Source: an uncultured Mycoplasmatota bacterium
GTDB lineage: Bacteria; Bacillota_I; Bacilli_A; RF39; UBA660
Assembly (NCBI GenBank): GCA_947365915.1
Contig: CANAXT010000001.1
Coordinates: forward strand, 7,347 to 71,346
Length of the DNA: 64,000 nt
Direction: 5' to 3'
The notes beneath the pieces are model-generated. The model searched no databases and was not told the origin of the DNA. It saw only the letters and a program-made list of their open reading frames with translations. Made by a program: the position numbers and the translations under genes. Below, piece after piece: positions 10,066 through 39,169 of this stretch (the first letter of the stretch is position 1; each line of letters opens with the position of its first letter).

Positions 10066-10149
10066 TTTTTTCCTCTTTTCTACATTTATTATAACATGTT
10101 TTTTCAAAGAAAAATAATCATTTTCCATAATCATTTATTTTTTTAGATA

Positions 10150-17330: not shown

Positions 17331-18803
17331 CTAATTTATTTTTTTGTTTAACATATAAGCCCCACCAAATAATAAGATTGAGAAAAGTCCTAATAATAAA
17401 TATTGTGTAATTCCATCATAGGTATTTGGATTTTGCTCCTCCAAAATTGTTGTTTGTCCTGTTTTTTCTTCTGCTATCACATAAGTACTGAAATGATTTG
17501 TTTCAAATGTTGCATTTCCATATTCATCTAAAGTTATTTTGTGTTTCTCTAACGTATTATCGTTTTTAATATAATAAGCAACTAAGCTTTTTCCTATATA
17601 ATTTGTTCCTAATGGAATAGTAATTTTAAATAGGCCTGTCTCTAATTTTGTTATAAATTTTCCTAGAGTTTCAGAGTATAAATTAATATCAAATGCTCTA
17701 AAATTATCTGTCATGAGTACTTCTTTAATTTTATTATATTCTTGTGTATTTTTACCTACTTCACTTGCTTCTACTGTGGCATCTAATGGTACTTCTAAAC
17801 TATCAGTAGAAACTTGAATTGCGGTCTCACTACTTGTTTTTGTATATGTTGGTAGCTTCATTTCTTCTGGTTTTTTTATTACAACAAATGGATAAGTTTT
17901 TCCGTTTATTTTAATGTAATAGTAGTTTCCATCTGTTTGGGTTTGATCTACAAAAGTGTATTCATTTGGATCATTTAGGAAAGTATTTAAGTCGCCTCCA
18001 TAAGTAACTTCGATGTTTTTATTGGCAAAAGAATTTGATAATTTTTGCTTTATTGCCTCTATATATGCTTCCTTGGTAGAAACTGTATTAGCAGGAATAT
18101 ATATTACATTATTCAGTTTCACACTTGAAATTTCCCCATATCCATAAGCTGTACCTTTATAATAAACAATTGAACTACCTGTTTCATCATCTCCGATAGA
18201 TGGGTCTCTTTTCGCACTTACATTTATTTTAATAGAAATGCTATAATCTTTTGTGAAATTGATCACTTCTGGTACAAACATAATACTAGAAGTCAATGGG
18301 TTATATTCTGATCCTGTTGGAATCGTCAAATAATAATTTATCAAGTTTAAATCTTCTAGGATATAGTTTTCTAAGTTATTATTGAAATTCACCTTTTTGA
18401 TATTGTTCACAACTTGTTGGGCGTTATTTGCAATTGCCTCATTTCTAGACTGATATTTTAATTGAACAGTACGAGTTTCTATTGTTGTATAATTTCTTGA
18501 GTTCTCTGCATCTTGCTTTTCAATAGAAAGATTACATTGTTCTGGTGTTTGAAAGTCTATATTCCATCTATATCCATCATTCAATTTGAAGTTTTTTAGA
18601 TATATATCTAATATTGTGCGCTCCCAATCATTTTCATAAGAACTTTTTGTCTTATAAACTGGCTCTTTTATGGCATTTAATTCAATGATATTACTAGGTG
18701 CTGCCTTATTAAAGATTGGTGCAGTATATTCATCTGCTTTCGCACTTACAGAAAATCCTAAAAATATCAGTGCTGTAAAAAGTAAAATTTTTAAATTTTT
18801 CAT
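17331..18803 (-). CDS. surface protein, putative sortase B substrate (signal peptide; NPNTY motif + hydrophobic segment + KK tail)
   Basis: Signal peptide MKNLKILLFTALIFLGFSVSAKA. The C-terminus is ...EEQNPNTYDGITQYLLLGLFSILLFGGAYMLNKKIN. It is divergent from srtB. RBS AGGAGAG is present. Confidence 0.6.
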   Translation of the reverse strand: MKNLKILLFTALIFLGFSVSAKADEYTAPIFNKAAPSNIIELNAIKEPVYKTKSSYENDWERTILDIYLKNFKLNDGYRWNIDFQTPEQCNLSIEKQDAENSRNYTTIETRTVQLKYQSRNEAIANNAQQVVNNIKKVNFNNNLENYILEDLNLINYYLTIPTGSEYNPLTSSIMFVPEVINFTKDYSISIKINVSAKRDPSIGDDETGSSIVYYKGTAYGYGEISSVKLNNVIYIPANTVSTKEAYIEAIKQKLSNSFANKNIEVTYGGDLNTFLNDPNEYTFVDQTQTDGNYYYIKINGKTYPFVVIKKPEEMKLPTYTKTSSETAIQVSTDSLEVPLDATVEASEVGKNTQEYNKIKEVLMTDNFRAFDINLYSETLGKFITKLETGLFKITIPLGTNYIGKSLVAYYIKNDNTLEKHKITLDEYGNATFETNHFSTYVIAEEKTGQTTILEEQNPNTYDGITQYLLLGLFSILLFGGAYMLNKKIN

Positions 18804-18934
18804 AAACTCTCTCCTATCTGTTCTTAGTATATCATTTCCATAAAATTTGGTCAAGAAAAAAATTTTTTATTTTTGCCTGCCTTAAATAATTGATACTTTT
18901 AAAAAAAACGTGATATAATCAAAGCGGTGATTAC

Positions 18935-19753
18935 ATGTTCGAAAAAATAAAGAAAAAGAAAAAAACGTTTATTTTAATCATTATGATCATGAGTATGATT
19001 ACTTTACTATTTTCTATTTTTCAAATTATAAATTGGAAAAAAGATTCGAATAAAACAAAAAAGGAAACTGTTAAAATTGAAAAAATTACTGATATCAAGG
19101 AAAAAGAAGACTCTAGTAATACTGAAATTATTGGTCAAGATATTTCTAAAGATGATCCTTACTGGGATTACATCAAGATGAACTTAATGGATGTTAATTT
19201 TAAAGATTTAAAGAAAAAAAACAGTTCTGTTGCTGGATGGATCCAAGTGCTTGGAACAAATATCAATTATCCTTATGTTTGGACAACAGATAATGAGTAT
19301 TATTTGACACATTCATTTGATAAGTCTAAGAATTATGCTGGATGGGTATTTTTGGATTATCGAAATCATAAAAGTGAGTTGTCTAAAAATAATATTATTT
19401 ATGCTCATGGTAGAAAGGATCATACAATGTTTGGTTCTTTAAATAAAATTTTAACAAATGGTTGGTTCTTAAATTCTAAAAATCATGTAGTTCGTATGTC
19501 TACAGAAACAGAGAATACTTTATGGCAAGTGTTTAGTGTATATCGAATTCCAAATACTAGTGATTATATTCAAGTTAATTTTAATAATGATGATGAATTT
19601 TCAAAGTTTGGCTCGATGATATTATCAAGAAGTAAACACAATTTTAGTACTTCTATTGATGGTAATGATACGATTTTAACGCTTTCTACTTGTTATGATG
19701 ATTATGAAAAAGTAGTTTTACACGCAAAATTGATTAAAAGAGAAAAAAAATAA
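18935..19753 (+). CDS. srtB: class B sortase
   Basis: An N-terminal TM, then GWIQVLGTNINYPYV, YAHGRKDHTMFGSL (catalytic His), LTLSTCYD (TLxTC Cys) and a conserved Arg. An extended -10 TGaTATAAT promoter is present. Confidence 0.8.
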   Translation: MFEKIKKKKKTFILIIMIMSMITLLFSIFQIINWKKDSNKTKKETVKIEKITDIKEKEDSSNTEIIGQDISKDDPYWDYIKMNLMDVNFKDLKKKNSSVAGWIQVLGTNINYPYVWTTDNEYYLTHSFDKSKNYAGWVFLDYRNHKSELSKNNIIYAHGRKDHTMFGSLNKILTNGWFLNSKNHVVRMSTETENTLWQVFSVYRIPNTSDYIQVNFNNDDEFSKFGSMILSRSKHNFSTSIDGNDTILTLSTCYDDYEKVVLHAKLIKREKK

Positions 19754-19760
19754 CTTCATG

Positions 19761-21509
19761 TTATTTTTTTAATTCGATTTGTTCTTTTAGAAAAGATAAA
19801 AAGTCTTCTTTTTTTAGTATGATTGTTTCGTTGCTTCCATGTTTCCGATAACTGATGCTTCCTTCATCTCTTTCTTTGTCTCCTAAAATTAAGGTATATG
19901 GAATTTTTTTGGTTTGGCTTTCTCTCATCTTGTAGCTTAGTTTTTCATCTTTTGTGTCTAATTCTACTCGGATGTGGTTTTGTTCTAAATAGGTTTTGAT
20001 TTCTTCTGCATATGTTAAGTGGTACTCGTTATTAACTGGAATGATGTTTACTTGGGTTGGTGCTAGCCAAACTGGAAATACACCTTTGGTTTCTTCGATT
20101 AAGAATGCAATAAATCGATCTAATGATCCTAAAATGGCTCTATGAATGACTACTGGTCTTTTTTTGTTTCCTTCTTCATCAATATAAGTTAAGTCAAATC
20201 GTTCTGGAAGTTGATAGTCTAATTGAACTGTAGAAAGTGTGACATCATGACCAATTGCGCTTTTTACTTGAACATCTAGTTTTGGTCCATAAAATGCTGC
20301 TTCTCCTTCGGCTTCATAAAAGTCTGCATTTAATTCTTGTAATACTTCTCGAAGTTCGTTTTCGCTTTTTTCCCATAGTTCGTCATTTCCAAAGTATTTG
20401 TCTTTGTTTTCTTTGTCTCTTAGTGATAAGCGAAAGCGGTAATTTGTAAAGTCAAAATCTTTATATACTTCTAAAATTAAATCGACTACTGCTTTAAATT
20501 CTTCTTTGATTTGTTCTTCTGTACAAAAGATATGGGAATCATTTTGGGTAAATGCTCTTGTTCTTTCTATTCCACAAACGGCTCCACTTGCTTCATATCT
20601 AAAATCATTGGCAATTTCAGCAATACGAAGTGGTAAATCACGATAAGAATGAAGATTATTTTTAAACATCATCATGTGATGTGGGCAATTCATTGGTCTT
20701 AATACATAGGCTTCATTGTCTAGTTCCATAGCTGGAAACATGTCTTCTCTGTAATGGTCCCAATGTCCACTTGTTTTATATAAGTCAACACTTGCTAAAG
20801 ATGGTGTCATAACGTGTTTATATCCATGTTCATATTCTTTTTCAGTAATATAATCTACTAGTTTTTTACGAATTATAAATCCATTTGGAAGCCACATTGG
20901 AAGGCCTCTTCCAACAATATCTGAAAACATAAAGATGTCTAATTCTTTTCCGATTTTTCTGTGGTCTCTCATTTTTGCTTCTTCTAGCAATTTTAAATGT
21001 TCTTCTAAGTCTTCTGCTGTTTCAAAGCAGATTCCATAGATACGTTGTAACATCTTGTTTTTTGAGTCTCCTTTAAAGTAAGCGCCACTAAATTTTAGAA
21101 GTTTAAAGTGTTTTAGTTCTTTTACCGTTTCGACATGTGGTCCTCTACAAAGGTCTGTGAAGTCTCCTTGGGTATAACATGAGATATTTCCATCTTCCAT
21201 TCTAGAGATTAAATCTATTTTGTATGGATCATCATGAAACATGTCTAGTGCTTCTTTTTTAGAAATTTCATGACGAACAATTCGTTTTCCATCTTTGGCT
21301 ATTTTTTTCATTTCTTTTTCGATTTTTGGGATGTCTTCTTCTTTAATAACTTCATCTCCTAAATCGATATCATAATAAAATCCTTCTTCTATGACTGGTC
21401 CTACCCAGAATTTTGCATCTTTGTATAAGTGTTTTACAGCTTGTGCTAGAAGATGGGCACAGCTATGGTTTAATTTGTTTAATCTTTCATCATTTTTGAT
21501 ATTTTTCAT
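19761..21509 (-). CDS. thrS: threonine--tRNA ligase lacking the N-terminal TGS domain
   Basis: HSCAHLLAQAV (N2 editing-domain HxxxH), class II motifs and an anticodon-binding domain. The protein is 582 aa and begins directly at the N2 domain. Confidence 0.9.
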   Translation of the reverse strand: MKNIKNDERLNKLNHSCAHLLAQAVKHLYKDAKFWVGPVIEEGFYYDIDLGDEVIKEEDIPKIEKEMKKIAKDGKRIVRHEISKKEALDMFHDDPYKIDLISRMEDGNISCYTQGDFTDLCRGPHVETVKELKHFKLLKFSGAYFKGDSKNKMLQRIYGICFETAEDLEEHLKLLEEAKMRDHRKIGKELDIFMFSDIVGRGLPMWLPNGFIIRKKLVDYITEKEYEHGYKHVMTPSLASVDLYKTSGHWDHYREDMFPAMELDNEAYVLRPMNCPHHMMMFKNNLHSYRDLPLRIAEIANDFRYEASGAVCGIERTRAFTQNDSHIFCTEEQIKEEFKAVVDLILEVYKDFDFTNYRFRLSLRDKENKDKYFGNDELWEKSENELREVLQELNADFYEAEGEAAFYGPKLDVQVKSAIGHDVTLSTVQLDYQLPERFDLTYIDEEGNKKRPVVIHRAILGSLDRFIAFLIEETKGVFPVWLAPTQVNIIPVNNEYHLTYAEEIKTYLEQNHIRVELDTKDEKLSYKMRESQTKKIPYTLILGDKERDEGSISYRKHGSNETIILKKEDFLSFLKEQIELKK

Positions 21510-21511
21510 TT

Positions 21512-21910
21512 TTATTTCCTCTTTTCTATTATTTGGTTATCATATGGTGCTATTCTTTTACTTAATATTGTTTCGGCTTTTCCTCGAATTAAATCAAATT
21601 CTGCTTCTGTTGCTAGTCTCCATATTGCTTTAATGGGAAACAGAGCAAGTAATTCTTCTAGCGTTTCTAAATCGATTGGTCCTATATAATTTTGTAATTT
21701 TTTAGATAATGAATCACATTCATATTCTCTTAATCCTAGATCTGTTTCTTTTACTATCATTTTAGATAATTCTATGATGTCTAAATCGTATAATGTATAG
21801 GCAATTTCTGTTTTATAAGCTAGATATAATTCTTGACGTTCTTTTGTATCCATTTTTCTTGATTGTAATCTTAGCATATTAAAATTGACTCGTGGCTGAT
21901 ATTGTTTCAT
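21512..21910 (-). CDS. unknown 132-aa protein, T-box controlled and translationally coupled to thrS
   Basis: Strong RBS AAGGAGG immediately after the T-box terminator. The stop overlaps the thrS ATG (ATGA). It has no TGS-like sequence. Confidence 0.55.
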   Translation of the reverse strand: MKQYQPRVNFNMLRLQSRKMDTKERQELYLAYKTEIAYTLYDLDIIELSKMIVKETDLGLREYECDSLSKKLQNYIGPIDLETLEELLALFPIKAIWRLATEAEFDLIRGKAETILSKRIAPYDNQIIEKRK

Positions 21911-22168
21911 CTAAAGACCTCCTTATAAATGAAAAATCCCTGCATTTCTGCAAGGAGCGAATGACGCGGTACCATCCTTTTTTGTTCTTTTTTTGATAAC
22001 GGCTTTGCCGGAAATCCTTTTGGGATTCAGTTCATAGGGAGTAACTGTTTCTATTTCATGTTGGACTTCCACCATCTCCAACTCGCTTTGATGAAATTTT
22101 TTAGAAAAAGTCGTGTCCTAATCAAAACTTTTCTAGTTTTATTTTATCATTTTTTTATTTTTTGTCAA
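21911..22168 (-). promoter_or_regulatory. T-box riboswitch leader (Thr) with promoter
   Basis: T-box sequence AAGGAUGGUACCGCG, then terminator CUCCUUGCAG-AAA-UGCAGGGA followed by UUUUU. Promoter TTGACA-16-TAAAAT at 22141-22168. A possible ACA specifier sits in GAAACAG. Confidence 0.75.
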
Positions 22169-23123
22169 TCTTTTTTAAGACGCTATCTACAAAAAATTGG
22201 AATGTTTGTTTTCTCTTTTTTTTGTTTGGAATGAATGTCAAATATAAATCTGGGTCAATGAGTTCGATTTCCATGATTTGATATTCGTCTTTTATTTTGA
22301 CTGCATCAATCCGCATATATAGATGATTTTGGTATTCTTTTATGTTTCTAATTTGATGCGCTAAAGAGGATAGTTTGGGATCTATTTGTTCTAAATATGT
22401 GATGGTATTGGTTTGTGTGAAAATACTTGGATATCTAAGAACTGCATTTTTTAATTGTCCATTGATAAAAACAAGGGAATATTCTCCATTTTCAATTTCT
22501 TTGATATATGGTTGAATCATGATTCTACTGGTTACATTTTGTAATAGTGTTTCTATTTCGTCTATGGTTTTGCTGTTTTTTTTGCTTTTTCCTCCTAAAA
22601 GATAGGTATCATTTCCGCTTTCTGACATGGTTGGTTTTATTACAATACGAGAGTGTTTTTGTTTTTTTATGATTTCTTTTATGTTTTTTGGTTCTGTGAA
22701 AGTTGTTTCGATATGTTTGATGTTATATTTGTCTAAGAGTTTAAATTGTTTTTCTTTGTCCATGTTTTCTTTTATGATGTTGGCTGTGTTAAATAATGAG
22801 ATATGGTTTTTGATGATCATGTTTAACCAGTTTTCAAATTCTTTTTTGTAATGATGAAATCCCCAAATGGATTTGATAATCAGGGCATCATATTGTTTGA
22901 AGTCGATGTTTTGATCTTTCCAAGAGATGATCTCTGCTTTTATTTTAGAACGTTCAAACATGCATTTTAAGTAGACATCTTCTTTTTGTTTTCCTAGGTA
23001 TTCATCGGTTGAGACAATGGCAATTTTTTTTGTAAATTGTTTTTTATGAAGTGTTACATATAATTTGGTGTTCCATTTGAATAAATGAAATGGAATTCGT
23101 TTGATTCTTCTTTTGATATTCAT
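22155..23123 (-). CDS. ATP-grasp domain protein (RimK/YheC-like ligase)
   Basis: The pre-ATP-grasp region is KIAIVSTDEY...YDALIIKS. The central region is RIVIKPTMSESGNDTYLLG. Confidence 0.55.
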   Translation of the reverse strand: MNIKRRIKRIPFHLFKWNTKLYVTLHKKQFTKKIAIVSTDEYLGKQKEDVYLKCMFERSKIKAEIISWKDQNIDFKQYDALIIKSIWGFHHYKKEFENWLNMIIKNHISLFNTANIIKENMDKEKQFKLLDKYNIKHIETTFTEPKNIKEIIKKQKHSRIVIKPTMSESGNDTYLLGGKSKKNSKTIDEIETLLQNVTSRIMIQPYIKEIENGEYSLVFINGQLKNAVLRYPSIFTQTNTITYLEQIDPKLSSLAHQIRNIKEYQNHLYMRIDAVKIKDEYQIMEIELIDPDLYLTFIPNKKKRKQTFQFFVDSVLKKIDKK

Positions 23124-24679
23124 TTTAGATCCCTCACTGCTTGATTGATTAGAAACATGTTATGTATTAGGTCTTGTTTTTCTATGGCGAAGTTACATCG
23201 TGCTACAATTTCATCGGTTGGCCAAGACATGTTAAGACCCATTAAACAGTTAATTTTGGTTTTTTTATAAAGGTAAGTAACGAAGTCGGCATCATTTTCT
23301 ATGGTGATGTCTCCATCTGTTAATCCTTTTAATTCAGTGAAATCAATCATAGCAAAGAAACCAGATTCTGGGGTAATTTTGATTTTTGTTTTAGGAATTC
23401 CTTCTTTTAAGATTTCTAATTTTTTTGGGTCTTTGGTATATTGTTTTATGTCTTTCATAATTTTCTTTTGGTTTTCGTCTACTCCTGTTATTAATGCTTC
23501 TAACAGGTCTAATCGGTATTTATATTCTTTGATGGATTTTTTAAAGTATTTATGTGCTAGTTTATAACGCCTTTTGGTCCCATTAAAGGCTCCTGCTAGA
23601 GCTGCTGATTGTAACATCGAGATACAGTCTAGCGAGGAAGCAATTTGGTTTTCAATCCCTCTAATGATTGGAATGGGTGCAATGATGGCTCCTGCTCTTA
23701 GACTTGCTAAGCTATAGGATTTTGAAAGTCCTATAATGGTTATGGTGTTGTTAAAATATTTTGGAATTGTGGCTAAAGGCAGTGCTAGGTCATTTTGGTC
23801 AAATGTTAGGTCACGGTATACCATATCATCAATAACAAATACTCCTTTTTCTAAGCATACATCTCCCATTTTTAGTAAAATATCTTTGGTTTTATTGTTT
23901 AATACTTTCCCTGTTGGATTGTGTGGGTTAATGTTTAGGAAAGCGACTACTTTTGGGATATAGTCTAGTTTGTTTTCAAATTCTTTTTTTAGTTTTTGAT
24001 TGATTTCATCAATTCGTTTTGATAGTTGTTCTGGGTTGATATACCAGTCGTCTTCTTCTCTTAAGTTGATGATTTCGACTCTGGCATTAAATACTTCGGT
24101 TGAAACGGCAAAGATTCCATAGTTTGGTCCTGTCATTAGTATGACATCTTCTGGTCTTGCTATCGTATTTAACACTAGTGTATAGGCGTGCATGGTGGAA
24201 TATGCGAAGGCGATATTTTCAACTCCTAGTCCATCTTTTTGGTTTCGTTTGAATCCTTCTTTTTCTAGGTAATCTACGACATGTGCGCGGTAGTCTGTTT
24301 CTCCTATAATGGATGGCGGGTAGATATAAAGGTGTCTACTAAATAGGCTTCTCATCATATATTCTTTGCAAAGTGGGAATGGTTTTTTCCTTAGTGGATT
24401 CCCGTTACGGATGGAAGAATATTCATCGATTTTTGGTACTCCGTTATCGTCATATATGGATAAGTCTTTGTATAGTAGGTTATATCCATCTTCTATTTTT
24501 TTTACTTCTTCATAAAAGTTTTTTTGATCATTTCTTTTTCCTACATCACGAAATTCGGATAAGGTGGTTGGATTCCGTCTAGTATAATCTATGAGTGATG
24601 CAGAAAAGTTTTCTTTTTGGTAGTCACTATGTGTTACTGTTACGTCTGTTTTTAATATTTTTTGTATCCACTTTTTCAT
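23120..24679 (-). CDS. PLP-dependent aminotransferase, class I/II, with a ~130-aa N-terminal extension
   Basis: NPHNPTG motif and GLSKSYSLASLRAG (the PLP-binding Lys). The 5' end overlaps dnaI and the 3' end overlaps the ATP-grasp gene (ATGA). Confidence 0.75.
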   Translation of the reverse strand: MKKWIQKILKTDVTVTHSDYQKENFSASLIDYTRRNPTTLSEFRDVGKRNDQKNFYEEVKKIEDGYNLLYKDLSIYDDNGVPKIDEYSSIRNGNPLRKKPFPLCKEYMMRSLFSRHLYIYPPSIIGETDYRAHVVDYLEKEGFKRNQKDGLGVENIAFAYSTMHAYTLVLNTIARPEDVILMTGPNYGIFAVSTEVFNARVEIINLREEDDWYINPEQLSKRIDEINQKLKKEFENKLDYIPKVVAFLNINPHNPTGKVLNNKTKDILLKMGDVCLEKGVFVIDDMVYRDLTFDQNDLALPLATIPKYFNNTITIIGLSKSYSLASLRAGAIIAPIPIIRGIENQIASSLDCISMLQSAALAGAFNGTKRRYKLAHKYFKKSIKEYKYRLDLLEALITGVDENQKKIMKDIKQYTKDPKKLEILKEGIPKTKIKITPESGFFAMIDFTELKGLTDGDITIENDADFVTYLYKKTKINCLMGLNMSWPTDEIVARCNFAIEKQDLIHNMFLINQAVRDLK

Positions 24680-24691
24680 GTTCTCTCCCCT

Positions 24692-25603
24692 TTATTTTCT
24701 CCTGTTTGTACTAATCATTTCGATTTGATCTGTGAGTTGGATAATTCTAGATATAATTCGTTTGGCTTTTAGTTCATTAATTCCGTGTTTACTAAGACTG
24801 AAATGTTCTTCTAATAGTTTTAAGTCTAAGTTGGAAGTAAAAAAGGTTGGTAGTTTTTCATCCATTCTATATTGAATGAGTGGACAAAAGATTTCATCTC
24901 TCCCCCATTCTGTTGTGGCTTCAGCTCCGATGTCGTCAATGAGTAAGAGTGGTGCGGTTTTGACAATTTCATATTTTTCTTTAAAGTCATGTCCGAATGA
25001 TGCTTTTAGGTCTTTTAAAAATTCTGGCCAAAAGATGATGGCGCTTTTTATGTTTTGCCGTGCGAGTTCAGAAAACATGGCAACAATTAAATAGCTTTTC
25101 CCGGCTCCAAAGTTTCCATGTAGGTATAATCCTTTTTGATGTGGATTTTTTTTATAGTTTTTAATGAAATTTTGAATCCATTTAATGGTTGGATATCTTG
25201 ATGAATCTTTGGTGTCTATTTCTTTCATAGAGGCGTTTTTTAGTTCTTCTCCAATTTCAAAGAGTTCCATGTTTTTTTGGTAGCTTTTTGTTTTTTGTAG
25301 TTGTTTTTGGTATTTACAGGCTTGATATTCAAAGTTTAGATGATTTTCTGTTACAGATGGTAGATAGGCATATCCAGTGATGCTGTTTCTGCATTCTAAT
25401 AGATTTTTACAGTTTTTACAGTGTTCATATTCTGTTGCGCATTCTTCTAATGTGGAGGTATATTTGATTAGTTCTTTTTTGGAAAGTGGTAAAACGGTTA
25501 CTAGGTCATAGAATGTTTGATTTTTTAATGCTTGTTCATAAGATTCTGTTAATGTTTCTTCTATGTTTTTGGTCTTGGATAGTGTATCTGCTATTTTTTG
25601 CAT
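24692..25603 (-). CDS. dnaI: primosomal helicase loader DnaI
   Basis: An N-terminal Cys-rich zinc module (CKNCKNLLEC), the AAA+ Walker A GNFGAGKSY and Walker B LLIDDIG. Confidence 0.85.
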   Translation of the reverse strand: MQKIADTLSKTKNIEETLTESYEQALKNQTFYDLVTVLPLSKKELIKYTSTLEECATEYEHCKNCKNLLECRNSITGYAYLPSVTENHLNFEYQACKYQKQLQKTKSYQKNMELFEIGEELKNASMKEIDTKDSSRYPTIKWIQNFIKNYKKNPHQKGLYLHGNFGAGKSYLIVAMFSELARQNIKSAIIFWPEFLKDLKASFGHDFKEKYEIVKTAPLLLIDDIGAEATTEWGRDEIFCPLIQYRMDEKLPTFFTSNLDLKLLEEHFSLSKHGINELKAKRIISRIIQLTDQIEMISTNRRK

Positions 25604-26886
25604 TATGATACCTCCTTATATTCTTTTAATAATTCTTCGATTTCGGCTTGTTCTTCTTTGGAAGCTGTTTTGGCTTGGTATTCTTCTTTTAACCAGTTTG
25701 GATTAGTAGTTACTTTTTTGTTTTCTTTGTATGCTTTGCTTTTTCGGTATTCAGTTCCTGCTATTTTCATGGCTTCTTCGACTGTTTCTATGTTGCTTTT
25801 TTTCCACTGACTGGCTATTTTTTCGATGAATGGTTTTAATAGTTTGTTGTTATTGATTCTAAGTACATAATCAATTAGGACATTTACTACCCCTGGGTTT
25901 AAGTTGAAGTCTAAAAGTAAGTATTCTAATATGAGTAAGTCACTTTTGCTTGGGGCGGTATCTTTATATTTGCTGGCTAGAAAGTCATATGGTGAGGTTG
26001 TTTCGAATGTATAGATGATTTTGGCTCTATTTGAAGTATCTCCTGTTGGTTTTCTTAGGTATTCTGGTTGGGTTCGATATATTAGGTTTGGTAGTTTCCC
26101 ATGATGGTCAAATTGATAGAATTTACGGGCATTCATTCGTAATAGTTCTTTATCTATGGTATGTTTTTCGTTAATGGAGTTACGGATAATTTCGATTAGT
26201 AGTTCTTCTGTAAAGTCATAAATAAAGGATAATTGATAGATTAGTTTTTTTGTTGTTTTTGTAATACTTCGTTTGTTTAATAGTTCGTCTGGTATCATTT
26301 CTAAGACGGTGGATAGTTCAAATTTTGGTTCGATATTCATGCCTAGTTGATTTTTGTCTCTAACGTTGATTGGGTTTAAGTTTATGCCGTTTGGGGTGGT
26401 TGTATATATATCGTTAAAGTGGCACGTGATTTCTTCATAGTTGTTTAAGTTTAGTTTTGGGATTTTAAAGTATTCTACAATTTTATCGAATTCTCTTTTT
26501 CCTATGGTAGTATATAAGGCTGTTGATAGAACTGGGTTTCCAAAGAATTCTTTGGCTGAGATTGGAGAATATAGTTCATATAAGTAGGTATTCATGTGGT
26601 CTTTTTTGAGAAATGTTTTTAATAGTCCAATTGCTTCTAGTTTTTGTCTAGCTTCTACAATTTCTGATAAACTAATTCCCATATTTGTCATTAGGTGATG
26701 ATGTGTCCATTCAAGTGATAATAGTTCATTTTTGTCTAGGTATGAACAGAGAGTAAAATAAAAACTAATTGCCTGATAGCCAACGATTGGTTGGTATAAG
26801 GTAATTAATAGTTTTCGGTCATAATCATTTAAAATTGTTTTATTAATTACGATATATATGTCTGCTGGTAACAATCCTTTTTCCAT
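25603..26886 (-). CDS. dnaB: replication initiation and membrane attachment protein DnaB (Bacillus type)
   Basis: MEKGLLPADIYIVINKTILNDYDRKLLITLYQPIVG aligns to the B. subtilis DnaB N-terminus. The start was set at MEKGLL, which has RBS AGGTGGA. Confidence 0.75.
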   Translation of the reverse strand: MEKGLLPADIYIVINKTILNDYDRKLLITLYQPIVGYQAISFYFTLCSYLDKNELLSLEWTHHHLMTNMGISLSEIVEARQKLEAIGLLKTFLKKDHMNTYLYELYSPISAKEFFGNPVLSTALYTTIGKREFDKIVEYFKIPKLNLNNYEEITCHFNDIYTTTPNGINLNPINVRDKNQLGMNIEPKFELSTVLEMIPDELLNKRSITKTTKKLIYQLSFIYDFTEELLIEIIRNSINEKHTIDKELLRMNARKFYQFDHHGKLPNLIYRTQPEYLRKPTGDTSNRAKIIYTFETTSPYDFLASKYKDTAPSKSDLLILEYLLLDFNLNPGVVNVLIDYVLRINNNKLLKPFIEKIASQWKKSNIETVEEAMKIAGTEYRKSKAYKENKKVTTNPNWLKEEYQAKTASKEEQAEIEELLKEYKEVS

Positions 26887-26945
26887 AATTTCCACCTTCA
26901 TAGAAATAGTGTATCACAAAAAAAATTAGAAAAAAAGGAAATATC

Positions 26946-27161
26946 CTAAATTTCCTTATTTTTTTCCACATAATCGTCATAAAAAATTTCATCCGGTTTT
27001 GATTTAAAAATAGCTGCTATTTTAATCGCCATTTGATATGATAGTCTTCTAGTTCTGTTTTCTAATTGACAGTAAAATGGCTTACTAATTCCAAGCTTTT
27101 CACTCATTACTTTGGTTGTATATTTTTCACGATATCGTAATTCTTTTAAGCGATTTGACAT
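26946..27161 (-). CDS. XRE-family HTH regulator (71 aa)
   Basis: MSNRLKELRYREKYTTKVMSEKLGISKPFYCQLENRTRRLSYQMAIKIA. RBS GGAGG is 6 nt upstream. The longer ORF-track start lacks an RBS. Confidence 0.65.
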   Translation of the reverse strand: MSNRLKELRYREKYTTKVMSEKLGISKPFYCQLENRTRRLSYQMAIKIAAIFKSKPDEIFYDDYVEKNKEI

Positions 27162-27292
27162 GTTCATCCTCCTACCAACCTCATTATACCACAAAAGTAC
27201 ACTTGTAGTGCACTGTTTTTCGATTTCTTTTATGAGAAAATAGTAGTGATTGGAAATTTTTTCCATTTTTGTAGCATGTTGGAGGCGGTAGT

Positions 27293-27532
27293 ATGATTCG
27301 GAATCGAGACTTGAATCTTGAATATTCAAATTTTAGTAATAATGTTAGATACTATCGCAGACTCCATCAGTTAACACAAGAGGAGTTAGCTGAAAAGGCT
27401 GATCTTAGTACTTCTTATGTAAAACAAATTGAGTCTAATCATGAGTATAAGAATATTTCATTAACTACTATATTAAAGATTTCAAAGGCTTTGGATGTTG
27501 GTGTTAATGAGTTATTTTATCATCAGAAATAG
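27293..27532 (+). CDS. XRE-family HTH regulator (79 aa), divergent partner
   Basis: LHQLTQEELAEKADLSTSYVKQIESNHEYKNISLTTILKISKALDVGVNEL is an XRE-type HTH. Confidence 0.7.
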   Translation: MIRNRDLNLEYSNFSNNVRYYRRLHQLTQEELAEKADLSTSYVKQIESNHEYKNISLTTILKISKALDVGVNELFYHQK

Positions 27533-27535
27533 CAC

Positions 27536-27568
27536 TACTTCTACATTATAATGTAGAAGTATTTTTTT
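27536..27568 (+). terminator. rho-independent terminator
   Basis: An 11-bp perfect stem TACTTCTACAT/ATGTAGAAGTA with loop TATA, followed by TTTTTTT. Confidence 0.8.
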
Positions 27569-27688
27569 GTCAAGTTTTATTTTTAAGGACACCTCTATTC
27601 CAAAAAAACTGTCCATTTCCACTTTTTAGGGAATGAACAGTTGATCGTTTTGTCTTTGATATGATATTTAAAGAAAGTTCAATATCAT

Positions 27689-29059
27689 TTAAAATTCTAT
27701 TTTTTTATTGATATAATCTATTACTTCTTCTAATGGAAGGGTGATTTGTTCCATGGTATCTCTATCTCTTAGTGTTACTGTGTTGTTGTTTAAGGTTTCG
27801 TCATCTATGGTGATACAGATTGGTGTTCCAATTGCATCTTGTCTACGGTAACGTTTTCCAATGTTTCCAGCCTCGTCGTATGTTACGGAAAACTGTTTGG
27901 ATAGTGTTTTATATATTTCTATTGCTTTTTCTGAGTGATATTTTTTAATTAATGGAAGTATTGCAGCTTTATATGGTGCTAAAGCGGGAATAAAGCTTAA
28001 TACTTCTCTTGTTTCTTCGTTTTCTAGTTTGTCTACACGGTAAGCGTCACAAAGAAGGGCTAAAGTAAGACGATCGGCTCCGCATGATGATTCAATGACA
28101 TATGGAATATATTTTTCATTTGTTTCTGGGTCTAGGTATTCCATTGATTTTTTAGAATAGTTTTGATGTTGTGATAAGTCATAGTCTGTTCTATTATGGT
28201 TTCCGTAAATTTCTCCCCAACCGAATGGAAATTTGTATTCTACATCACATGCTTCTTTGGCATAGTGTGCGAGTTTTTCATGGTCTTTGAATCGTAGGTT
28301 TTGTTTTTTGATTCCTAAATCGGTAAAGAATGTTTTGGCAAATTCTTTGTAGTATTGGTAATATTCACTATCGGTTCCTTCTTTACAGAAAAATTGATGT
28401 TCCATTTGTTCAAATTCGATGGTCCTAAAAGTAAAGTTTCCTGGTGTGATTTCGTTTCTGAATGCTTTTCCAATTTGTCCAATTCCAAATGGTATTTTTG
28501 GTCTCATGGTTCTATATACGTTTAAGAAGTTTACGAATTCTCCTTGGGCTGTTTCTGGTCTTAGGTATACTAGGGAGGTGTTATCTGTAACCACTCCTCT
28601 ATTGGTTTTGAACATAAGGTTAAATTCTCTAATGTCTGTATAGTTTGTTTTGCCACAGTTTGGACATGGAACGTTATGTTCTTTGATATAAGTTACCATC
28701 TCTTCTTCTGTCATGGTATCTGCGTTTATGTTTTCGTCAAAATTTTCGATTAGTTTGTCTGCTCGATGTCTTGTTTTGCATTCTTTACAGTCTAATAATG
28801 GATCGGTAAAGCTTCCTACGTGACCACTTGCTTCCCATACTTTTGGGTTCATAAATATGGCAGCGTCTACTCCGTAACTGTTTGAACTTTCTTGAACAAA
28901 TCGTTTCCACCATAGCTTTTTTACGTTGTTTTTGAGTTCTACTCCAAGTGGACCGTAGTCCCAGGTATTGGCAAGTCCGTCATATATTTCGCTTCCTTGA
29001 AAGATAAATCCATATTGTTTGCATAAGTTTACTAATTTTTCCATTGTTAATGTTTCCAT
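27689..29059 (-). CDS. glyQS: glycine--tRNA ligase (alpha2-type)
   Basis: METLTMEKLVNLCKQYGFIFQGSEIYDGLANTWDYGPLGVELKNNVKKLWW... is the typical GlyRS N-terminus. The protein is 456 aa. Confidence 0.9.
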   Translation of the reverse strand: METLTMEKLVNLCKQYGFIFQGSEIYDGLANTWDYGPLGVELKNNVKKLWWKRFVQESSNSYGVDAAIFMNPKVWEASGHVGSFTDPLLDCKECKTRHRADKLIENFDENINADTMTEEEMVTYIKEHNVPCPNCGKTNYTDIREFNLMFKTNRGVVTDNTSLVYLRPETAQGEFVNFLNVYRTMRPKIPFGIGQIGKAFRNEITPGNFTFRTIEFEQMEHQFFCKEGTDSEYYQYYKEFAKTFFTDLGIKKQNLRFKDHEKLAHYAKEACDVEYKFPFGWGEIYGNHNRTDYDLSQHQNYSKKSMEYLDPETNEKYIPYVIESSCGADRLTLALLCDAYRVDKLENEETREVLSFIPALAPYKAAILPLIKKYHSEKAIEIYKTLSKQFSVTYDEAGNIGKRYRRQDAIGTPICITIDDETLNNNTVTLRDRDTMEQITLPLEEVIDYINKKIEF

Positions 29060-29250
29060 GTTTTTTCCTCTTTTCTATTTTGGATCATGCAAATAAAAAG
29101 ATTCTTCTAGAAGTTGTAAGGACGAGTTTTACCCGCGGTTCCACCTTACTTATTCTAAAAGAATCGGCTTTTTTTATATTGCTCTAGGTTTCCAAGCCTG
29201 TCATCGCATTGATCTATATTTATTTTACGTGATTATTTTGATTTCGTCAA
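29060..29250 (-). promoter_or_regulatory. T-box riboswitch leader (Gly) with promoter
   Basis: T-box GUAAGGUGGAACCGCGGG. A GNUGA motif and a GGC specifier sit in GCGAUGACAGGCU. Promoter TTGACG-17-TAAAAT at 29222-29250. Confidence 0.7.
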
Positions 29251-29292
29251 TGATTTTTATCAAATATGTCTTGATTCATACTTAAATTCATT

Positions 29293-29669: not shown

Positions 29670-31628
29670 TTATTGATTGATTTTAATTCTATATGAAGTG
29701 GCTGCACTTAAATTGGTTGTTTCTGATCCTGATATTGAAAACATATAAGTAAGTGGTGAATCAGTGTCTACTTCATTGTCTAGAACAGCATTTCCAATTA
29801 CTTTCCCAGTACTGTCGTACAATTCAAAGTTTCCTTTCATTGTTCTTGTACTTGTTCCTTTATTGGTAATTTGTAATGTAATCATCATCGTTTGTTGATC
29901 ATCATATATTGTAGCATTTATAAATTTCACATTCCAATTATTATAGTTTACTTCACTATTTCCTGTTTTACTTTGTAATGAAATTTCTTTTTCTTTTGGT
30001 ACTTCAATCTCTTTTTTCTCTCCATCACAAGTGTATCCTTCGTTTAAGTAATATCCTTTTGCTTCATCTATTGTTGCATACCAAGTATTATCTTTTTCTT
30101 CTTCTTTTGCTTTTCTGTGATCTCTTTCTTCTATTACTGTGTACGAGAATACAGCATCTTGGAAGTTATAGGTTTGACTTTTTCCATCTGTATTTTTATT
30201 CGTTTGTGATAATGATTGTAATAATTGTTTCATTTGGTTATAATCGTTCACATTTTCAAATGTTGCTTTTCCTTCTAAGCGTTCTGTTAAAATATTATGT
30301 GTTTTTTTATTATAAGTGATCGTTACAGTGGTATCTGTTAATGATCCTTGATTTTTATCCGAGAATGTACAAACCATCTTTTCGTTTACCGCTGTTGCTG
30401 GTTTATTTGTTTTCTTTGGTGTTTTGTTTAAGTTTGGTTCTATTACAAATAGGTATAATGAAATAATTCCAGCTATTAATAATATAATAACCATGATTAT
30501 AATTATTATTTTTGAACCTTTTCCTTTTTTTGGTTTCTTCATAGGAACTGGTGGAATAGGTTCTAAATTGGTTAGTTTTGAACTCATTTGTTCTTCTTTA
30601 TTCTGAATTGGTTCTATTGGGGTTCCTATACTTGTTTCTGGTTGTACTTCTTTATTTGTCTCTTCCACTATTTCTTTGTTTTCTTCTAATGGTGCAATTG
30701 GGGTTTCTATGTTTGTTTCTGGTTGTATTTCTTTATTTGTTTCTTCTACTATTTCTTTATTTTCTTCTGGTGAAACAATTGGAGTTTCTATGTTTGTTTC
30801 TGGCTGTATATTGTTATTGTTTTCCCCAATAATTTCTCCGCTTGTTTCTAATGGAATGATTGGAATTTCTATGTCTATATCTAATATTTCTTTATCTTCT
30901 TGTTTTTCGCCAATGATTTCTCCACTTGTTTCTAAAGGTATGATTGGAATTTCTATATCTTCTGCCATCTTATTTTCTATTTGTGCTTCACTATTTGTCT
31001 CGTTTATAACCTCTTTATTCTCTTCTGATGAGATGATTTGTGGTTCTAAATTTGCTGGTGATTGATCTATTTGTATTTCTTGTTTTGTCTCTTCTACCGT
31101 TTTTTCATTTTGCATGATTGAAGTTTCTACTTTTGGTTCAGGAATCGGTGCGTTATGTTCTAATGATGCTTGTGGTGTTACAATTTCAGTCTCTTCTACA
31201 GGTTTCTTTTTCATGAAAAAGTTAGAAAAATTCAGATTTGCATCAATTTCTTCTTTTTCTGGCAATGTGAAAAGGTTTGGGTATGCTTCTTGTTTTTCTG
31301 GAAATTCATTAAAACTAACAATACTAATACGATCAATGGTGCTATAATCAATTAATTCAATCTCGCTATTTTCTTTTTCTGAAAATACATCTTTAAATAA
31401 TGAAAATACTTGTTGTTTTTCTGAATCTGTTTCACATTTAAATATTAAGTATTGATCTCTTACATGAGATAATTTTCCGATATAGATTTCTAAGCGAATG
31501 TCTCTTTTTTTCTTTGGTTTTTCTATAAATGCGAGATATTGATTTTGATTATAAATAATTTTTAATCCTGCTACGACTTCTATAAAGTGATCTTCTTTTG
31601 TTGTGTCTTTTACTAATTTCTTTTCCAT
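29670..31628 (-). CDS. repeat-rich single-pass membrane protein, unknown function
   Basis: 652 aa. The N-terminal domain is cytoplasmic. There are tandem acidic repeats (IEIPIIPLETSGEIIGE x2 and ETNKEIQPETNIETPI x3), one TM helix (IIIIIMVIILLIAGIISLYLFVI) and a C-terminal extracytoplasmic domain. Confidence 0.6.
   Translation of the reverse strand: MEKKLVKDTTKEDHFIEVVAGLKIIYNQNQYLAFIEKPKKKRDIRLEIYIGKLSHVRDQYLIFKCETDSEKQQVFSLFKDVFSEKENSEIELIDYSTIDRISIVSFNEFPEKQEAYPNLFTLPEKEEIDANLNFSNFFMKKKPVEETEIVTPQASLEHNAPIPEPKVETSIMQNEKTVEETKQEIQIDQSPANLEPQIISSEENKEVINETNSEAQIENKMAEDIEIPIIPLETSGEIIGEKQEDKEILDIDIEIPIIPLETSGEIIGENNNNIQPETNIETPIVSPEENKEIVEETNKEIQPETNIETPIAPLEENKEIVEETNKEVQPETSIGTPIEPIQNKEEQMSSKLTNLEPIPPVPMKKPKKGKGSKIIIIIMVIILLIAGIISLYLFVIEPNLNKTPKKTNKPATAVNEKMVCTFSDKNQGSLTDTTVTITYNKKTHNILTERLEGKATFENVNDYNQMKQLLQSLSQTNKNTDGKSQTYNFQDAVFSYTVIEERDHRKAKEEEKDNTWYATIDEAKGYYLNEGYTCDGEKKEIEVPKEKEISLQSKTGNSEVNYNNWNVKFINATIYDDQQTMMITLQITNKGTSTRTMKGNFELYDSTGKVIGNAVLDNEVDTDSPLTYMFSISGSETTNLSAATSYRIKINQ
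30600..30970. repeat. intragenic tandem DNA repeats (about 54-nt units x3 and about 51-nt units x2)
   Basis: Near-identical tandem units are visible in the nucleotide sequence. They encode the acidic repeats. Confidence 0.7.
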
Positions 31629-39164: not shown

Positions 39165-39169
39165 GATTC

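What the first reader, a model, noticed from the sequence alone, without database searches (positions are those of the whole stretch)
22155..24692. ATP-grasp ligase and extended class I aminotransferase pair welded into the dnaB-dnaI replication operon
dnaB, dnaI, the aminotransferase (NPHNPTG, SKSYSLASLRAG Lys; 519 aa with a ~130-aa N-terminal extension) and an ATP-grasp protein are joined by overlapping stop and start codons (overlaps at 25603, 24679-24692 and 23120-23123). In Bacillus this position holds ytxB and ytxC. An amino-acid ligase plus aminotransferase pair recalls small peptide or modified amino-acid pathways, bacilysin BacD/BacF-like in logic only. Its placement here would co-express it with replication-initiation genes.
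Basis: partly seen in the sequence, partly recalled or inferred. Interest (0 to 1): 0.5.

Follow-up and report, generated by a model that had tools for sequence, protein, structure and literature searches.

The report
Conserved aminotransferase–ATP-grasp cassette behind dnaI
The two genes are one copy of an uncharacterised, always-paired enzyme cassette (a PLP-dependent aminotransferase-type enzyme plus a DcsG-like ATP-grasp ligase) found across uncultured gut Bacilli; its position behind the replication genes dnaB and dnaI occurs only in this lineage, while elsewhere it often sits beside cell-wall genes.

Summary
The genes, motifs and coordinates are real. dnaB/dnaI overlap by 1 nt and aminotransferase (AT)/ATP-grasp by 4 nt (ATGA). 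dnaI/AT is a 12-nt spacer carrying an RBS, not an overlap.

- **ATP-grasp:** neither a BacD-type L-amino-acid ligase nor a YheC/D or RimK protein. Its only significant solved relative is the D-cycloserine synthetase DcsG, and it is far below the equivalog cut-off.
- **AT:** no routine Asp/Ala aminotransferase. It belongs to a distinct 505-545-aa class I family, closest by sequence to PatB/MalY C-S lyases.
- **Pairing:** in every Bacilli locus examined, from about 20 distinct contexts, the AT lies immediately upstream of the ATP-grasp, usually with the same ATGA overlap. The two proteins co-diverge (r = 0.93).
- **Placement:** dnaB-dnaI lies upstream only in the two closest relatives, and in one of those 2.4 kb intervenes. 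The link to replication genes is therefore lineage-specific and probably incidental.
- **Other neighbours:** murF, femAB, murJ-like flippases, murA, amidase, PcsB/M23 and a deacetylase. These suggest, but do not prove, a role in cell-wall precursor synthesis.

No characterised member and no literature were found. Moderate interest.

The parts
27545..27573 (-). Promoter-like site (TTGACA-17-TATAAT, 12/12) upstream of the HTH-dnaB-dnaI-AT-ATP-grasp gene string
   Evidence: This is a consensus match only. It is the sole perfect match in 21400-27800, and the total number of sites equals the shuffle expectation.
26946..27329 (-). XRE-family HTH protein, first gene of the string
   Evidence: PF01381/PF12844 hits. 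95% identical in L011 at the same position.
25603..26901 (-). Firmicute DnaB (helicase-loading/remodelling protein, not the replicative helicase)
   Evidence: PF07261 50.3 bits. NF053829 scores 263.6 bits, below its cut-off of 570.
24692..25603 (-). DnaI helicase loader; its start overlaps the dnaB stop by 1 nt (TAATG)
   Evidence: NF006505 259.2 bits, above the cut-off of 228. Junction read.
24680..24691 (-). 12-nt dnaI-AT spacer aggggagagaac carrying the AT ribosome-binding site (not an overlap)
   Evidence: The same 12-nt gap is present in L011.
23120..24679 (-). Long (519 aa) PLP-dependent class I aminotransferase-fold enzyme, first gene of the cassette
   Evidence: PF00155 81.5 bits. Every NCBIfam equivalog is far below its cut-off. 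Residues invariant across 32 homologues include N251, P252, H253, N254, P255, D284, Y288, K320 and R494; R328 is conserved in at least 90%. AF2 pLDDT 92.5. The fold matches class I ATs. The nearest sequence relatives are PatB/MalY C-S lyases.
22155..23123 (-). DcsG-like ATP-grasp ligase (322 aa), second gene of the cassette; its ATG overlaps the AT stop (ATGA)
   Evidence: NF058666 DcsG 92.7 bits against a cut-off of 360. Precomputed Pfam PF27100 DcsG_N. Profile vs PDB finds 6JIL only, at 1.3e-25. AF2 pLDDT 91.5. Best Foldseek hit is 6JIL, TM 0.72-0.78. Junction read.
22141..22168 (-). Promoter-like site (TTGACA-16-TAAAAT with TG, 11/12) straddling the ATP-grasp stop; probable promoter of the thrS leader
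   Evidence: consensus match only.
21937..22134 (-). T-box leader (21950-22134) with its terminator hairpin (21956-21937). It bounds the cassette downstream and would also terminate read-through from the dnaB operon.
   Evidence: RF00230 72.9 bits, E 3.9e-16 in the local search, below the gathering score of 93. Terminator found. GGUGGUACCGCG-like box read.
21512..21910 (-). Conserved 132-aa ORF of no known family, between the T-box and thrS
   Evidence: No Pfam, NCBIfam or PADLOC hit. Present at the same position in L011 (53% id) and L015 (43% id).
19761..21509 (-). Threonine-tRNA ligase
   Evidence: TIGR00418 722.7 bits.

Best explanation
The two genes are a self-contained, translationally coupled two-enzyme cassette. 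The first gene encodes a long PLP-dependent enzyme with a class I aminotransferase fold. The second encodes a DcsG-like ATP-grasp carboxylate-amine ligase. The cassette is inherited as an inseparable unit across uncultured gut Bacilli: MAGs labelled Bacilli, 'Tenericutes', 'Mycoplasma sp. CAG:877' and 'Clostridium sp. CAG:762'.

In the window's lineage the cassette sits between dnaI and the thrS T-box leader. From my own knowledge, that slot holds ytxB-ytxC in Bacillus subtilis. The cassette has no promoter of its own there, so it is read from the dnaB-dnaI transcript. This is a lineage-specific gene-order event, not a replication function.

Inferred mechanism:
1. The PLP enzyme makes or converts an alpha-amino acid. 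It could transaminate, or it could racemise or beta-eliminate, as its nearest PatB/MalY relatives can.
2. The ATP-grasp activates a carboxylate as an acyl phosphate and joins it to an amine.
3. The product most likely feeds peptidoglycan-precursor or cross-bridge synthesis. Known parallels are the racemase + D-Asp ligase (RacD/Asl) and VanT + VanC pairs.

Shown here: the family assignments, the intact catalytic residues, the invariant pairing and the variable context. Inferred: the chemistry and the cell-wall destination.
For: **Pairing.**
- The AT lies directly upstream of the ATP-grasp in all 34 Bacilli loci of the systematic comparison. The junction is -4 (ATGA) in 21 of them and between -1 and +9 in all others except one truncated locus.
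- The pairing recurs in the 9 further loci with called genes.
- No other gene is shared by more than 6 of the 34 loci.
- Pairwise divergences of the two proteins correlate at r = 0.93, with 0 of 2000 Mantel permutations reaching that value.
- Basic amphipathic N-terminal segments are present in both proteins or absent from both, except in three loci of one clade where the AT start may be mis-called.

**Placement.**
- dnaB-dnaI lies upstream only in L011 (12-nt gap) and in L015, where a pilin-like gene and a GNAT gene intervene.
- In most other loci there is an 80-340-nt gap upstream of the AT; five have 17-60 nt and L035 overlaps its upstream gene by 4 nt.

**Active enzymes.**
- The PLP-binding and substrate-binding residues are conserved.
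- The ATP-grasp invariants K163, R271, D273, E285 and E287 align with DcsG.
- Both models are confident.

**Cell-wall association.** Genes within two positions of the cassette in independent contexts:
- murF (TIGR01143 394 bits; L022, L023, L026)
- femAB, two or three copies (L012, L016, L038)
- murJ/SpoVB-like flippase (L012, L031, L032, L046)
- PcsB/M23 hydrolases (L012)
- PF00275 protein of MurA size (L016)
- polysaccharide deacetylase (L046)
- class A beta-lactamase-like protein (L035)
- MurNAc-L-Ala amidase (L052)

That is 7 of about 20 contexts, against 1.5-3.7 expected.

PMC10868615 reports that RF39, ML615J-28 and RFN20 family CAG-631 have peptidoglycan pathways with 'steps missing' unless replaced by 'unidentified redundant genes'.
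Against: - No product or substrate is identified, and neither protein reaches any equivalog cut-off.
- The cell-wall association is only guilt by association. It rests on a rough base rate (p = 0.0005-0.06 depending on the assumption).
- More than half the contexts are housekeeping or unknown genes: recA, rplM-rpsI, pheST, ychF, dnaBI.
- One clade embeds the pair in an operon with a LysR regulator, a Nudix protein, AAA_28, an LAL-type ATP-grasp and an amino-acid ABC transporter. That looks metabolic rather than cell-wall related.
- Another study called the peptidoglycan pathway complete in four RF39/RFN20 genomes.
- Co-transcription with dnaI is inferred from sequence alone.
Confidence: 0.45

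Rival explanations
1. General amino-acid or small-molecule metabolism unrelated to the envelope. The pair would make a dipeptide, an amide, or a cyclised amino-acid derivative (DcsG itself cyclises its substrate) that serves as osmolyte, storage form, signal or cofactor precursor.
For: - The contexts are mostly housekeeping genes.
- The clade lacking the N-terminal helices carries the pair with a polar-amino-acid ABC transporter, a second LAL-type ATP-grasp, AAA_28, a Nudix protein and a LysR regulator.
- The wider DcsG-like family (2386 representatives at E<=1e-30) sits in very diverse contexts.
Against: - Peptidoglycan genes are over-represented next to the pair.
- The N-terminal basic amphipathic segments on both proteins are compatible with action at the membrane. 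That reading is itself speculative.
Confidence: 0.27
2. Non-orthologous replacement of alanine racemase plus D-Ala-D-Ala ligase. The PatB/MalY-like PLP enzyme would racemise alanine, and the DcsG-like ATP-grasp would make the D-Ala-D-X dipeptide for MurF.
For: - murF lies directly upstream of the pair in L022, L023 and L026, with no ddl beside it.
- DcsG acts on a D-amino-acid substrate and Ddl is a close fold neighbour.
- From my own knowledge, MalY/MetC-type enzymes have reported racemase side activities.
- No Ddl or Alr homologue was found in 649 kb of fetched sequence.
Against: - One search has almost no power, since it covers only about 14 kb per genome.
- The bioRxiv study 10.1101/2020.01.21.914887 reports complete peptidoglycan pathways in four RF39/RFN20 genomes, which implies a canonical ddl there.
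- Class I aminotransferase-fold enzymes are normally L-specific.
Confidence: 0.1
3. A bacilysin-like small-peptide or antimetabolite pathway. An L-amino-acid ligase plus aminotransferase would make a secreted dipeptide or modified amino acid.
For: An aminotransferase plus an ATP-grasp is the minimal logic of BacF/BacD. The DcsG relative makes an antibiotic.
Against: - The window protein has no LAL-type domain.
- There are no accompanying tailoring, export or immunity genes, and only the two genes are conserved.
- The pair is single-copy, sits in core-genome contexts and co-diverges across many species.
- There are no relatives on viral contigs, and only 21-26%-identical relatives on plasmids.
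Confidence: 0.06
4. The pair is functionally tied to replication initiation, for example by coupling a metabolite pool to DnaB/DnaI expression or activity.
For: In the window and in L011 there is a 12-nt gap behind dnaI and no strong promoter of the pair's own.
Against: Only the window, L011 and L015 of about 20 distinct contexts show the linkage, and L015 has 2.4 kb of unrelated genes between dnaI and the AT. Elsewhere the pair follows recA, murF, femAB, pheT and others.
Confidence: 0.03
5. An ordinary arrangement: a YheC/D-type spore-coat ATP-grasp beside a routine aspartate or alanine aminotransferase.
For: The host is a spore-former: YqfD and GerM-type genes are in the window and GerA is in L004.
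Against: - No PF14398/PF14397 hit at E<=0.01.
- All Asp/Ala aminotransferase equivalogs score 49-59 bits against cut-offs of 534-617.
- The AT family is 505-545 aa and was always found with the ATP-grasp.
Confidence: 0.02

Closest known systems
DcsG, D-cycloserine synthetase of Streptomyces lavendulae (PDB 6JIL; NCBIfam NF058666; Pfam DcsG_N PF27100)
   Same: It is the only solved protein with significant sequence similarity: profile E 1.3e-25 over nearly full length. It is also the best fold match, TM 0.72-0.78. The ATP-grasp catalytic residues align, and both proteins are about 300 aa with three domains.
   Different: Identity is 18% in the structural alignment. The score is 92.7 bits against an equivalog cut-off of 360. 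There are no dcsA-F neighbours. The partner here is a class I aminotransferase-fold enzyme. The Bacilli clade carries an extra N-terminal helix of about 30 aa.
Aspartate racemase + D-aspartate ligase operon (Rac/Asl of Enterococcus faecium and Lactococcus lactis) and VanT + VanC (from my own knowledge)
   Same: The logic is the same: an amino-acid-converting enzyme is co-transcribed with an ATP-grasp ligase that installs the product in a peptidoglycan precursor. Here the pair neighbours murF, femAB and murJ.
   Different: The families differ. Asl and VanC are not DcsG-like. Rac is PLP-independent, and VanT is a fold-type III racemase. No biochemical evidence exists here.
BacF/BacD of bacilysin biosynthesis
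   Same: An aminotransferase together with an ATP-grasp ligase.
   Different: BacD is a four-domain L-amino-acid ligase. The window protein has no LAL_C2 or ATP-grasp_4 hit. There is no bacABCE-like context. The pair lies in a conserved core-genome position rather than a biosynthetic cluster.
PatB/MalY-type C-S beta-lyases (PDB 4DGT, 6QP3, 7QUG, 9K71)
   Same: They are the best sequence relatives of the AT family, with profile E values of 1e-20 to 1e-15. Both have the class I fold, and the AT has a conserved Schiff-base Lys and carboxylate-binding Arg.
   Different: TIGR04350 scores 57.9 bits against a cut-off of 340. The AT carries about 128 extra residues as an N-terminal extension and two insertions. 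It is obligatorily paired with an ATP-grasp.
Cj1437 aminotransferase + Cj1438 ATP-grasp amidoligase of the Campylobacter jejuni capsule (from my own knowledge)
   Same: An aminotransferase makes an amine that an ATP-grasp ligates to a carboxylate on a cell-surface polymer. Some contexts here include glycosyltransferases, a Wzx/MurJ-type flippase and GtrA.
   Different: No sequence relationship was tested or expected. The acceptor and the amine are unknown here.

Membership tests
ATP-grasp superfamily | Three-domain ATP-grasp fold | tested here: met
   AF2 model pLDDT 91.5. Foldseek gives probability 1.00 to DcsG, ArgX/LysX, Ddl, RimK and GshB.
ATP-grasp superfamily | Conserved ATP-binding Lys and the Mg/acyl-phosphate residues (R-x-D ... 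E-x-E/N) | tested here: met
   K163, R271, D273, E285 and E287 are invariant in 23-24 homologues and align with DcsG.
DcsG, D-cycloserine synthetase (equivalog NF058666) | Score at or above the curated cut-off of 360 bits | tested here: not met
   92.7 bits. This indicates homology, not orthology.
DcsG, D-cycloserine synthetase (equivalog NF058666) | dcs cluster context (O-ureidoserine synthase, racemase and others) | tested here: not met
   Only the AT is conserved beside it in 34 loci.
L-amino-acid ligases of BacD/YwfE type | LAL-type domains (ATP-grasp_4 / LAL_C2); four-domain protein of about 400-470 aa | tested here: not met
   No such Pfam hit at E<=0.01 and only 322 aa. A separate 419-aa LAL-type protein does exist downstream in the L043 clade.
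YheC/YheD spore-coat ATP-grasp | PF14398 ATPgrasp_YheCD match | tested here: not met
   No hit at E<=0.01.
RimK alpha-L-glutamate ligase | TIGR00768 score at or above 143.4 bits | tested here: not met
   30.6 bits. The Pfam RimK domain scores 27 bits, which is generic ATP-grasp similarity.
Fold-type I, class I/II aminotransferase family (PF00155) | Pfam gathering score, the Schiff-base Lys, the Asp binding the pyridine N, the phosphate-binding Arg and the alpha-carboxylate-binding Arg | tested here: met
   81.5 bits against a cut-off of 19.7. K320, D284/D285, Y288 and R494 are invariant and R328 is conserved in at least 90% of 32 sequences. The fold matches class I aminotransferases at TMt 0.75-0.87.
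Routine aspartate / alanine / LL-DAP aminotransferase equivalogs | Score at or above the curated cut-off of any NCBIfam equivalog | tested here: not met
   The best of the 25 families listed (of 57 matched) score 46-73 bits against cut-offs of 276-675.
PatB-family C-S lyase (TIGR04350) | Score at or above 340 bits | tested here: not met
   57.9 bits, although PatB/MalY structures are the top sequence hits in PDB.
dnaB-dnaI helicase-loader operon of Firmicutes | DnaI equivalog and a DnaB_2-domain protein, adjacent and co-oriented | tested here: met
   DnaI NF006505 scores 259 bits, above 228. DnaB hits PF07261 at 50 bits, but its equivalogs score 262-264 bits against cut-offs of 570-800. The two genes overlap by 1 nt.
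Peptidoglycan-precursor amino-acid ligase pairs (Rac/Asl, VanT/VanC) | Demonstrated ligation of the product onto a UDP-MurNAc-peptide, or formation of the MurF dipeptide | not testable with these tools
   Only neighbourhood evidence is available.

The most novel reading that the evidence does not exclude
The AT + DcsG-like ATP-grasp cassette is a previously unrecognised peptidoglycan-precursor pathway of the RF39-like uncultured Bacilli. It would supply and ligate a non-canonical or D-amino acid, either as the dipeptide for MurF or as a cross-bridge or stem-peptide addition. This would fill the 'missing steps' that genome surveys report for these lineages and explain how they build a wall with an apparently incomplete gene set.
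Probability: 0.2. Interest if true: 0.7.

Novelty: new variant of a known kind. Interest (0 to 1): 0.4.

Why it matters
RF39-like Bacilli are abundant gut bacteria that have never been cultured. Their physiology is known only from gene content, and surveys flag gaps in their cell-wall precursor pathways. This two-enzyme cassette has no characterised member. It is inseparable, well conserved (the AT is 45-55% identical across most of the clade) and repeatedly placed next to murF, femAB and murJ. That makes it a concrete, clonable candidate for one of those gaps, or at least for a lineage-defining metabolite. The link to dnaB-dnaI is a local gene-order accident, so no replication-metabolism coupling should be inferred from it.

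Tried and rejected
- **Family assignment.** BacD-type LAL, YheC/D and RimK assignments for the ATP-grasp were tested and not met. Routine Asp/Ala/DAP aminotransferase equivalogs were also not met. Aspartate 4-decarboxylase, another long class I enzyme, appears neither among the PDB sequence hits (E<=1e-5 for the protein, <=1e-8 for the profile) nor among the 50 Foldseek matches listed.
- **Defence or mobile origin.** There are no PADLOC hits and no relatives on viral contigs. Plasmid relatives are only 21-26% identical and come from other phyla. Their neighbourhoods (iron-type ABC transporters, GNAT, regulators) were uninformative.
- **AT-ATP-grasp fusion.** No such Rosetta-stone fusion is among the top 150 profile hits. 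The two long hits are a carbamoyltransferase fusion and one with an unknown C-terminal domain.
- **Canonical ddl/alr.** Searching the fetched loci with the E. coli proteins found nothing in 649 kb. That covers only about 14 kb per genome, so it has no real power.
- **Literature.** Searches for DcsG homologues, for AT + ATP-grasp + peptidoglycan and for Erysipelotrichia found no description of this pair. The supplementary KO table of PMC10868615 is truncated before the ddl and alr rows.
- **Structure library.** afdb50 was unavailable.
- **Horizontal transfer.** The composition profile gives no sign of it; GC is 0.30-0.36, like the neighbouring genes.

Full report
**Observation.** The minus strand of 19.7-27.6 kb carries a tight gene string:
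- an XRE-type HTH protein (26946-27329)
- the Firmicute helicase-loading protein DnaB (25603-26901; PF07261)
- DnaI (24692-25603; NF006505 259 bits, above its cut-off)
- a 519-aa PF00155 protein (23120-24679)
- a 322-aa ATP-grasp protein (22155-23123)

dnaB/dnaI share one base (TAATG) and AT/ATP-grasp share four (ATGA). The third 'overlap' is wrong. dnaI ends at 24692 and the AT starts at 24679, with the 12-nt spacer aggggagagaac carrying an RBS between them.

The '130-aa N-terminal extension' is really about 63 N-terminal residues plus insertions of about 19, 32 and 12 residues, measured against the nearest solved relative 4DGT.

A T-box leader with its terminator follows (21950-22134; 72.9 bits, E 3.9e-16), then a conserved 132-aa ORF and thrS. 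The only perfect sigma-70-like site in the region lies upstream of the HTH gene (27573-27545), and none lies in front of the AT. The cassette is therefore most simply read from the dnaB-dnaI transcript, and read-through would meet the T-box terminator.

**What the two proteins are: the ATP-grasp.**
- Its best NCBIfam hit is the D-cycloserine synthetase DcsG, at 92.7 bits against a cut-off of 360. RimK and glutathione-synthase models score about 30 bits. There is no YheC/D or LAL-type hit.
- Precomputed Pfam annotations give DcsG_N (PF27100) for it and its homologues.
- Against all PDB sequences, a profile of 23 homologues finds DcsG (6JIL) at 1.3e-25 over nearly the full length. The only other hit is a RimK-like ligase at 7.7e-4.
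- The AF2 model (pLDDT 91.5) matches 6JIL best (TM 0.72-0.78, 18% identity). ArgX/LysX, Ddl and RimK follow.
- The catalytic Lys, Arg, Asp and Glu residues are invariant.
- It is therefore an active ATP-grasp of the DcsG-like family, not DcsG itself.
- That wider family is large: 2386 representatives at E<=1e-30. The Bacilli clade is a small branch of it, distinguished by an extra N-terminal helix of about 30 aa.

**What the two proteins are: the aminotransferase-type enzyme.**
- It matches PF00155 at 81.5 bits, but none of the 25 NCBIfam families listed (of 57 matched) comes near its cut-off.
- The Schiff-base Lys, the Asp binding the pyridine nitrogen, the carboxylate-binding Arg and the NPxNP motif are invariant in 32 homologues, and the phosphate-binding Arg is conserved in at least 90%.
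- The model (pLDDT 92.5) matches generic class I aminotransferases at 14-20% identity.
- By sequence, the nearest solved proteins are PatB/MalY-type C-S lyases.
- Its homologues form a distinct family of 505-545 aa. All come from metagenomes or MAGs and carry only generic names.

**Synteny.**
- A scan of one genome per GTDB species found 30 Bacilli loci, all from uncultured gut MAGs, plus two Bacteroidota loci with a distant ATP-grasp and no AT.
- In the systematic comparison of 34 Bacilli loci, the AT is immediately upstream of the ATP-grasp and co-oriented in all 34. The junction is ATGA (-4) in 21. It lies between -1 and +9 in all others except L040, where the ATP-grasp is truncated at the contig end and the called ORFs overlap by 20 nt.
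- The 9 loci with called genes that were fetched afterwards show the same arrangement.
- No other gene is shared by more than 6 of the 34 loci.
- Pairwise divergences of the two proteins correlate at r = 0.93, with 0 of 2000 Mantel permutations reaching that value.
- The basic amphipathic N-terminal segments are both present or both absent. The exception is three loci of one clade, where the AT ORF call starts late and the start may be mis-called.
- dnaB-dnaI lies upstream only in L011 (74%-identical ATP-grasp, same 12-nt gap) and in L015. In L015 a pilin-like gene and a GNAT gene (2.4 kb) separate dnaI from the AT.
- In most other loci an 80-340-nt gap precedes the AT, consistent with a promoter of its own. 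Five loci have 17-60 nt, and in L035 the AT start overlaps the upstream gene by 4 nt.
- The 'weld' to the replication operon is therefore real here but lineage-specific. It is best read as the cassette occupying the slot that, from my own knowledge, holds ytxB-ytxC in Bacillus subtilis.

**Function.** None of this identifies a substrate. The best clue is the neighbourhood.

| Neighbour | Loci |
|---|---|
| MurF (TIGR01143, 394 bits), directly upstream | L022, L023, L026 |
| FemAB, two or three copies | L012, L016, L038 |
| MurJ/SpoVB-like flippase | L012, L031, L032, L046 |
| PcsB-like and M23/LysM hydrolases, directly downstream | L012 |
| GDSL esterase and a PF00275 protein of MurA size | L016 |
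| Polysaccharide deacetylase | L046 |
| Class A beta-lactamase-like gene overlapping the AT start | L035 |
| MurNAc-L-Ala amidase, directly downstream | L052 |
| LiaF-type envelope-stress genes | L004, L044 |

- By my count, 7 of about 20 distinct contexts have a peptidoglycan gene within two positions. The expectation is 1.5-3.7, giving p = 0.0005-0.06 depending on the assumed base rate. This is suggestive, not conclusive.
- The host makes a wall. The window encodes VanY, a PBP5-type carboxypeptidase and MurT. It also encodes a sortase-homologous ORF next to a 507-aa protein with a C-terminal anchor-like tail.
- A survey of these orders reports m-DAP-type pathways with 'steps missing' unless replaced by 'unidentified redundant genes' (PMC10868615). 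An earlier study called the pathway complete in four genomes.
- I therefore favour, with modest confidence, a two-step module. The PLP enzyme makes or converts an amino acid, and the ATP-grasp ligates it through an acyl phosphate into a wall precursor. Known parallels are Rac/Asl and VanT/VanC.
- The specific idea that the pair replaces Alr + Ddl is attractive because of the murF adjacency, but it is weakly supported.
- A non-envelope metabolic role remains a serious rival. This holds especially for the clade where the pair travels with a LysR regulator, a Nudix protein, AAA_28, an LAL-type ATP-grasp and an amino-acid ABC transporter.

**Comparison and verdict.**
- The bacilysin-like reading is not supported.
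- No paper describing the pair was found. It is neither phage-borne nor on plasmids.
- It is an uncharacterised, lineage-wide variant of the known scheme 'amino-acid-converting enzyme plus ATP-grasp ligase'. Its likely but unproven destination is the cell wall.

Noticed in passing
window 21512-21910 (-) and 19761-21509 (-): A 132-aa ORF with no Pfam, NCBIfam or PADLOC match sits between the thrS T-box leader and thrS, 2 nt from the thrS start. It is conserved at the same position in L011 (53% id) and L015 (43% id). The ThrRS is 582 aa and starts at the editing-domain HxxxH motif, so it seems to lack the N-terminal TGS domain.
   Followed up: partly
window 29115-29256 (-): A second, weak T-box leader match (34.3 bits, E 1.7e-4) lies upstream of the 456-aa class II tRNA ligase gene at 27689-29059, which looks like glycine-tRNA ligase. 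That gene's family was not tested.
   Followed up: no
window 29670-31628 (-): A 652-aa protein has Glu/Ile/Pro-rich tandem repeats (EIPIIPLETSGEIIGE..., ETNIETPI...) followed by a transmembrane segment and a C-terminal globular part. Its function is unknown.
   Followed up: no
window 17331-19753: A 507-aa protein with an N-terminal signal-like segment and a C-terminal hydrophobic anchor tail lies next to a divergently oriented 272-aa ORF. That ORF resembles the PF04203 sortase gene of L004 (43% identity). This is consistent with a walled host.
   Followed up: partly
window 8935-10134, 37842-39919, 52745-53980: Peptidoglycan genes occur elsewhere in the window: a VanY-family D,D-carboxypeptidase, MurT with a possible GatD ORF next to it (not tested), and a PBP5/S11 carboxypeptidase. 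The host's stem peptides probably end in D-Ala-D-Ala and carry amidated D-Glu.
   Followed up: partly
P0205 (872 aa): This is a natural fusion of a NodU/CmcH-like carbamoyltransferase to a DcsG-like ATP-grasp. DcsG's own substrate is a ureido (carbamoylated) amino acid, which makes the fusion notable. The N-terminal domain was identified by eye and not tested.
   Followed up: no
L041 5466-9090 and L042 5388-8991: In two Bacteroidota MAGs a distant DcsG-like ATP-grasp lies in a conserved block: transglutaminase-like protein, an unknown protein of 220-231 aa, the ATP-grasp, then an NlpC/P60 + YARHG protein. This looks like another amide ligase/hydrolase association.
   Followed up: partly
L010 3946-12047; L043 4441-12609; L031/L032 7943-9335: The clade whose AT and ATP-grasp both lack the N-terminal helices carries the pair with a LysR regulator and a Nudix protein. 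In L010 and L043 it also carries AAA_28, a 415-419-aa LAL-type ATP-grasp and a polar-amino-acid ABC transporter. L034 holds a second AT copy at the end of this block.
   Followed up: partly
L015 3403-5339: In the relative L015 a 482-aa protein with a type IV pilin N-methylation motif and a GNAT acetyltransferase lie between dnaI and the AT. This shows that the dnaI-AT junction is evolutionarily labile.
   Followed up: partly
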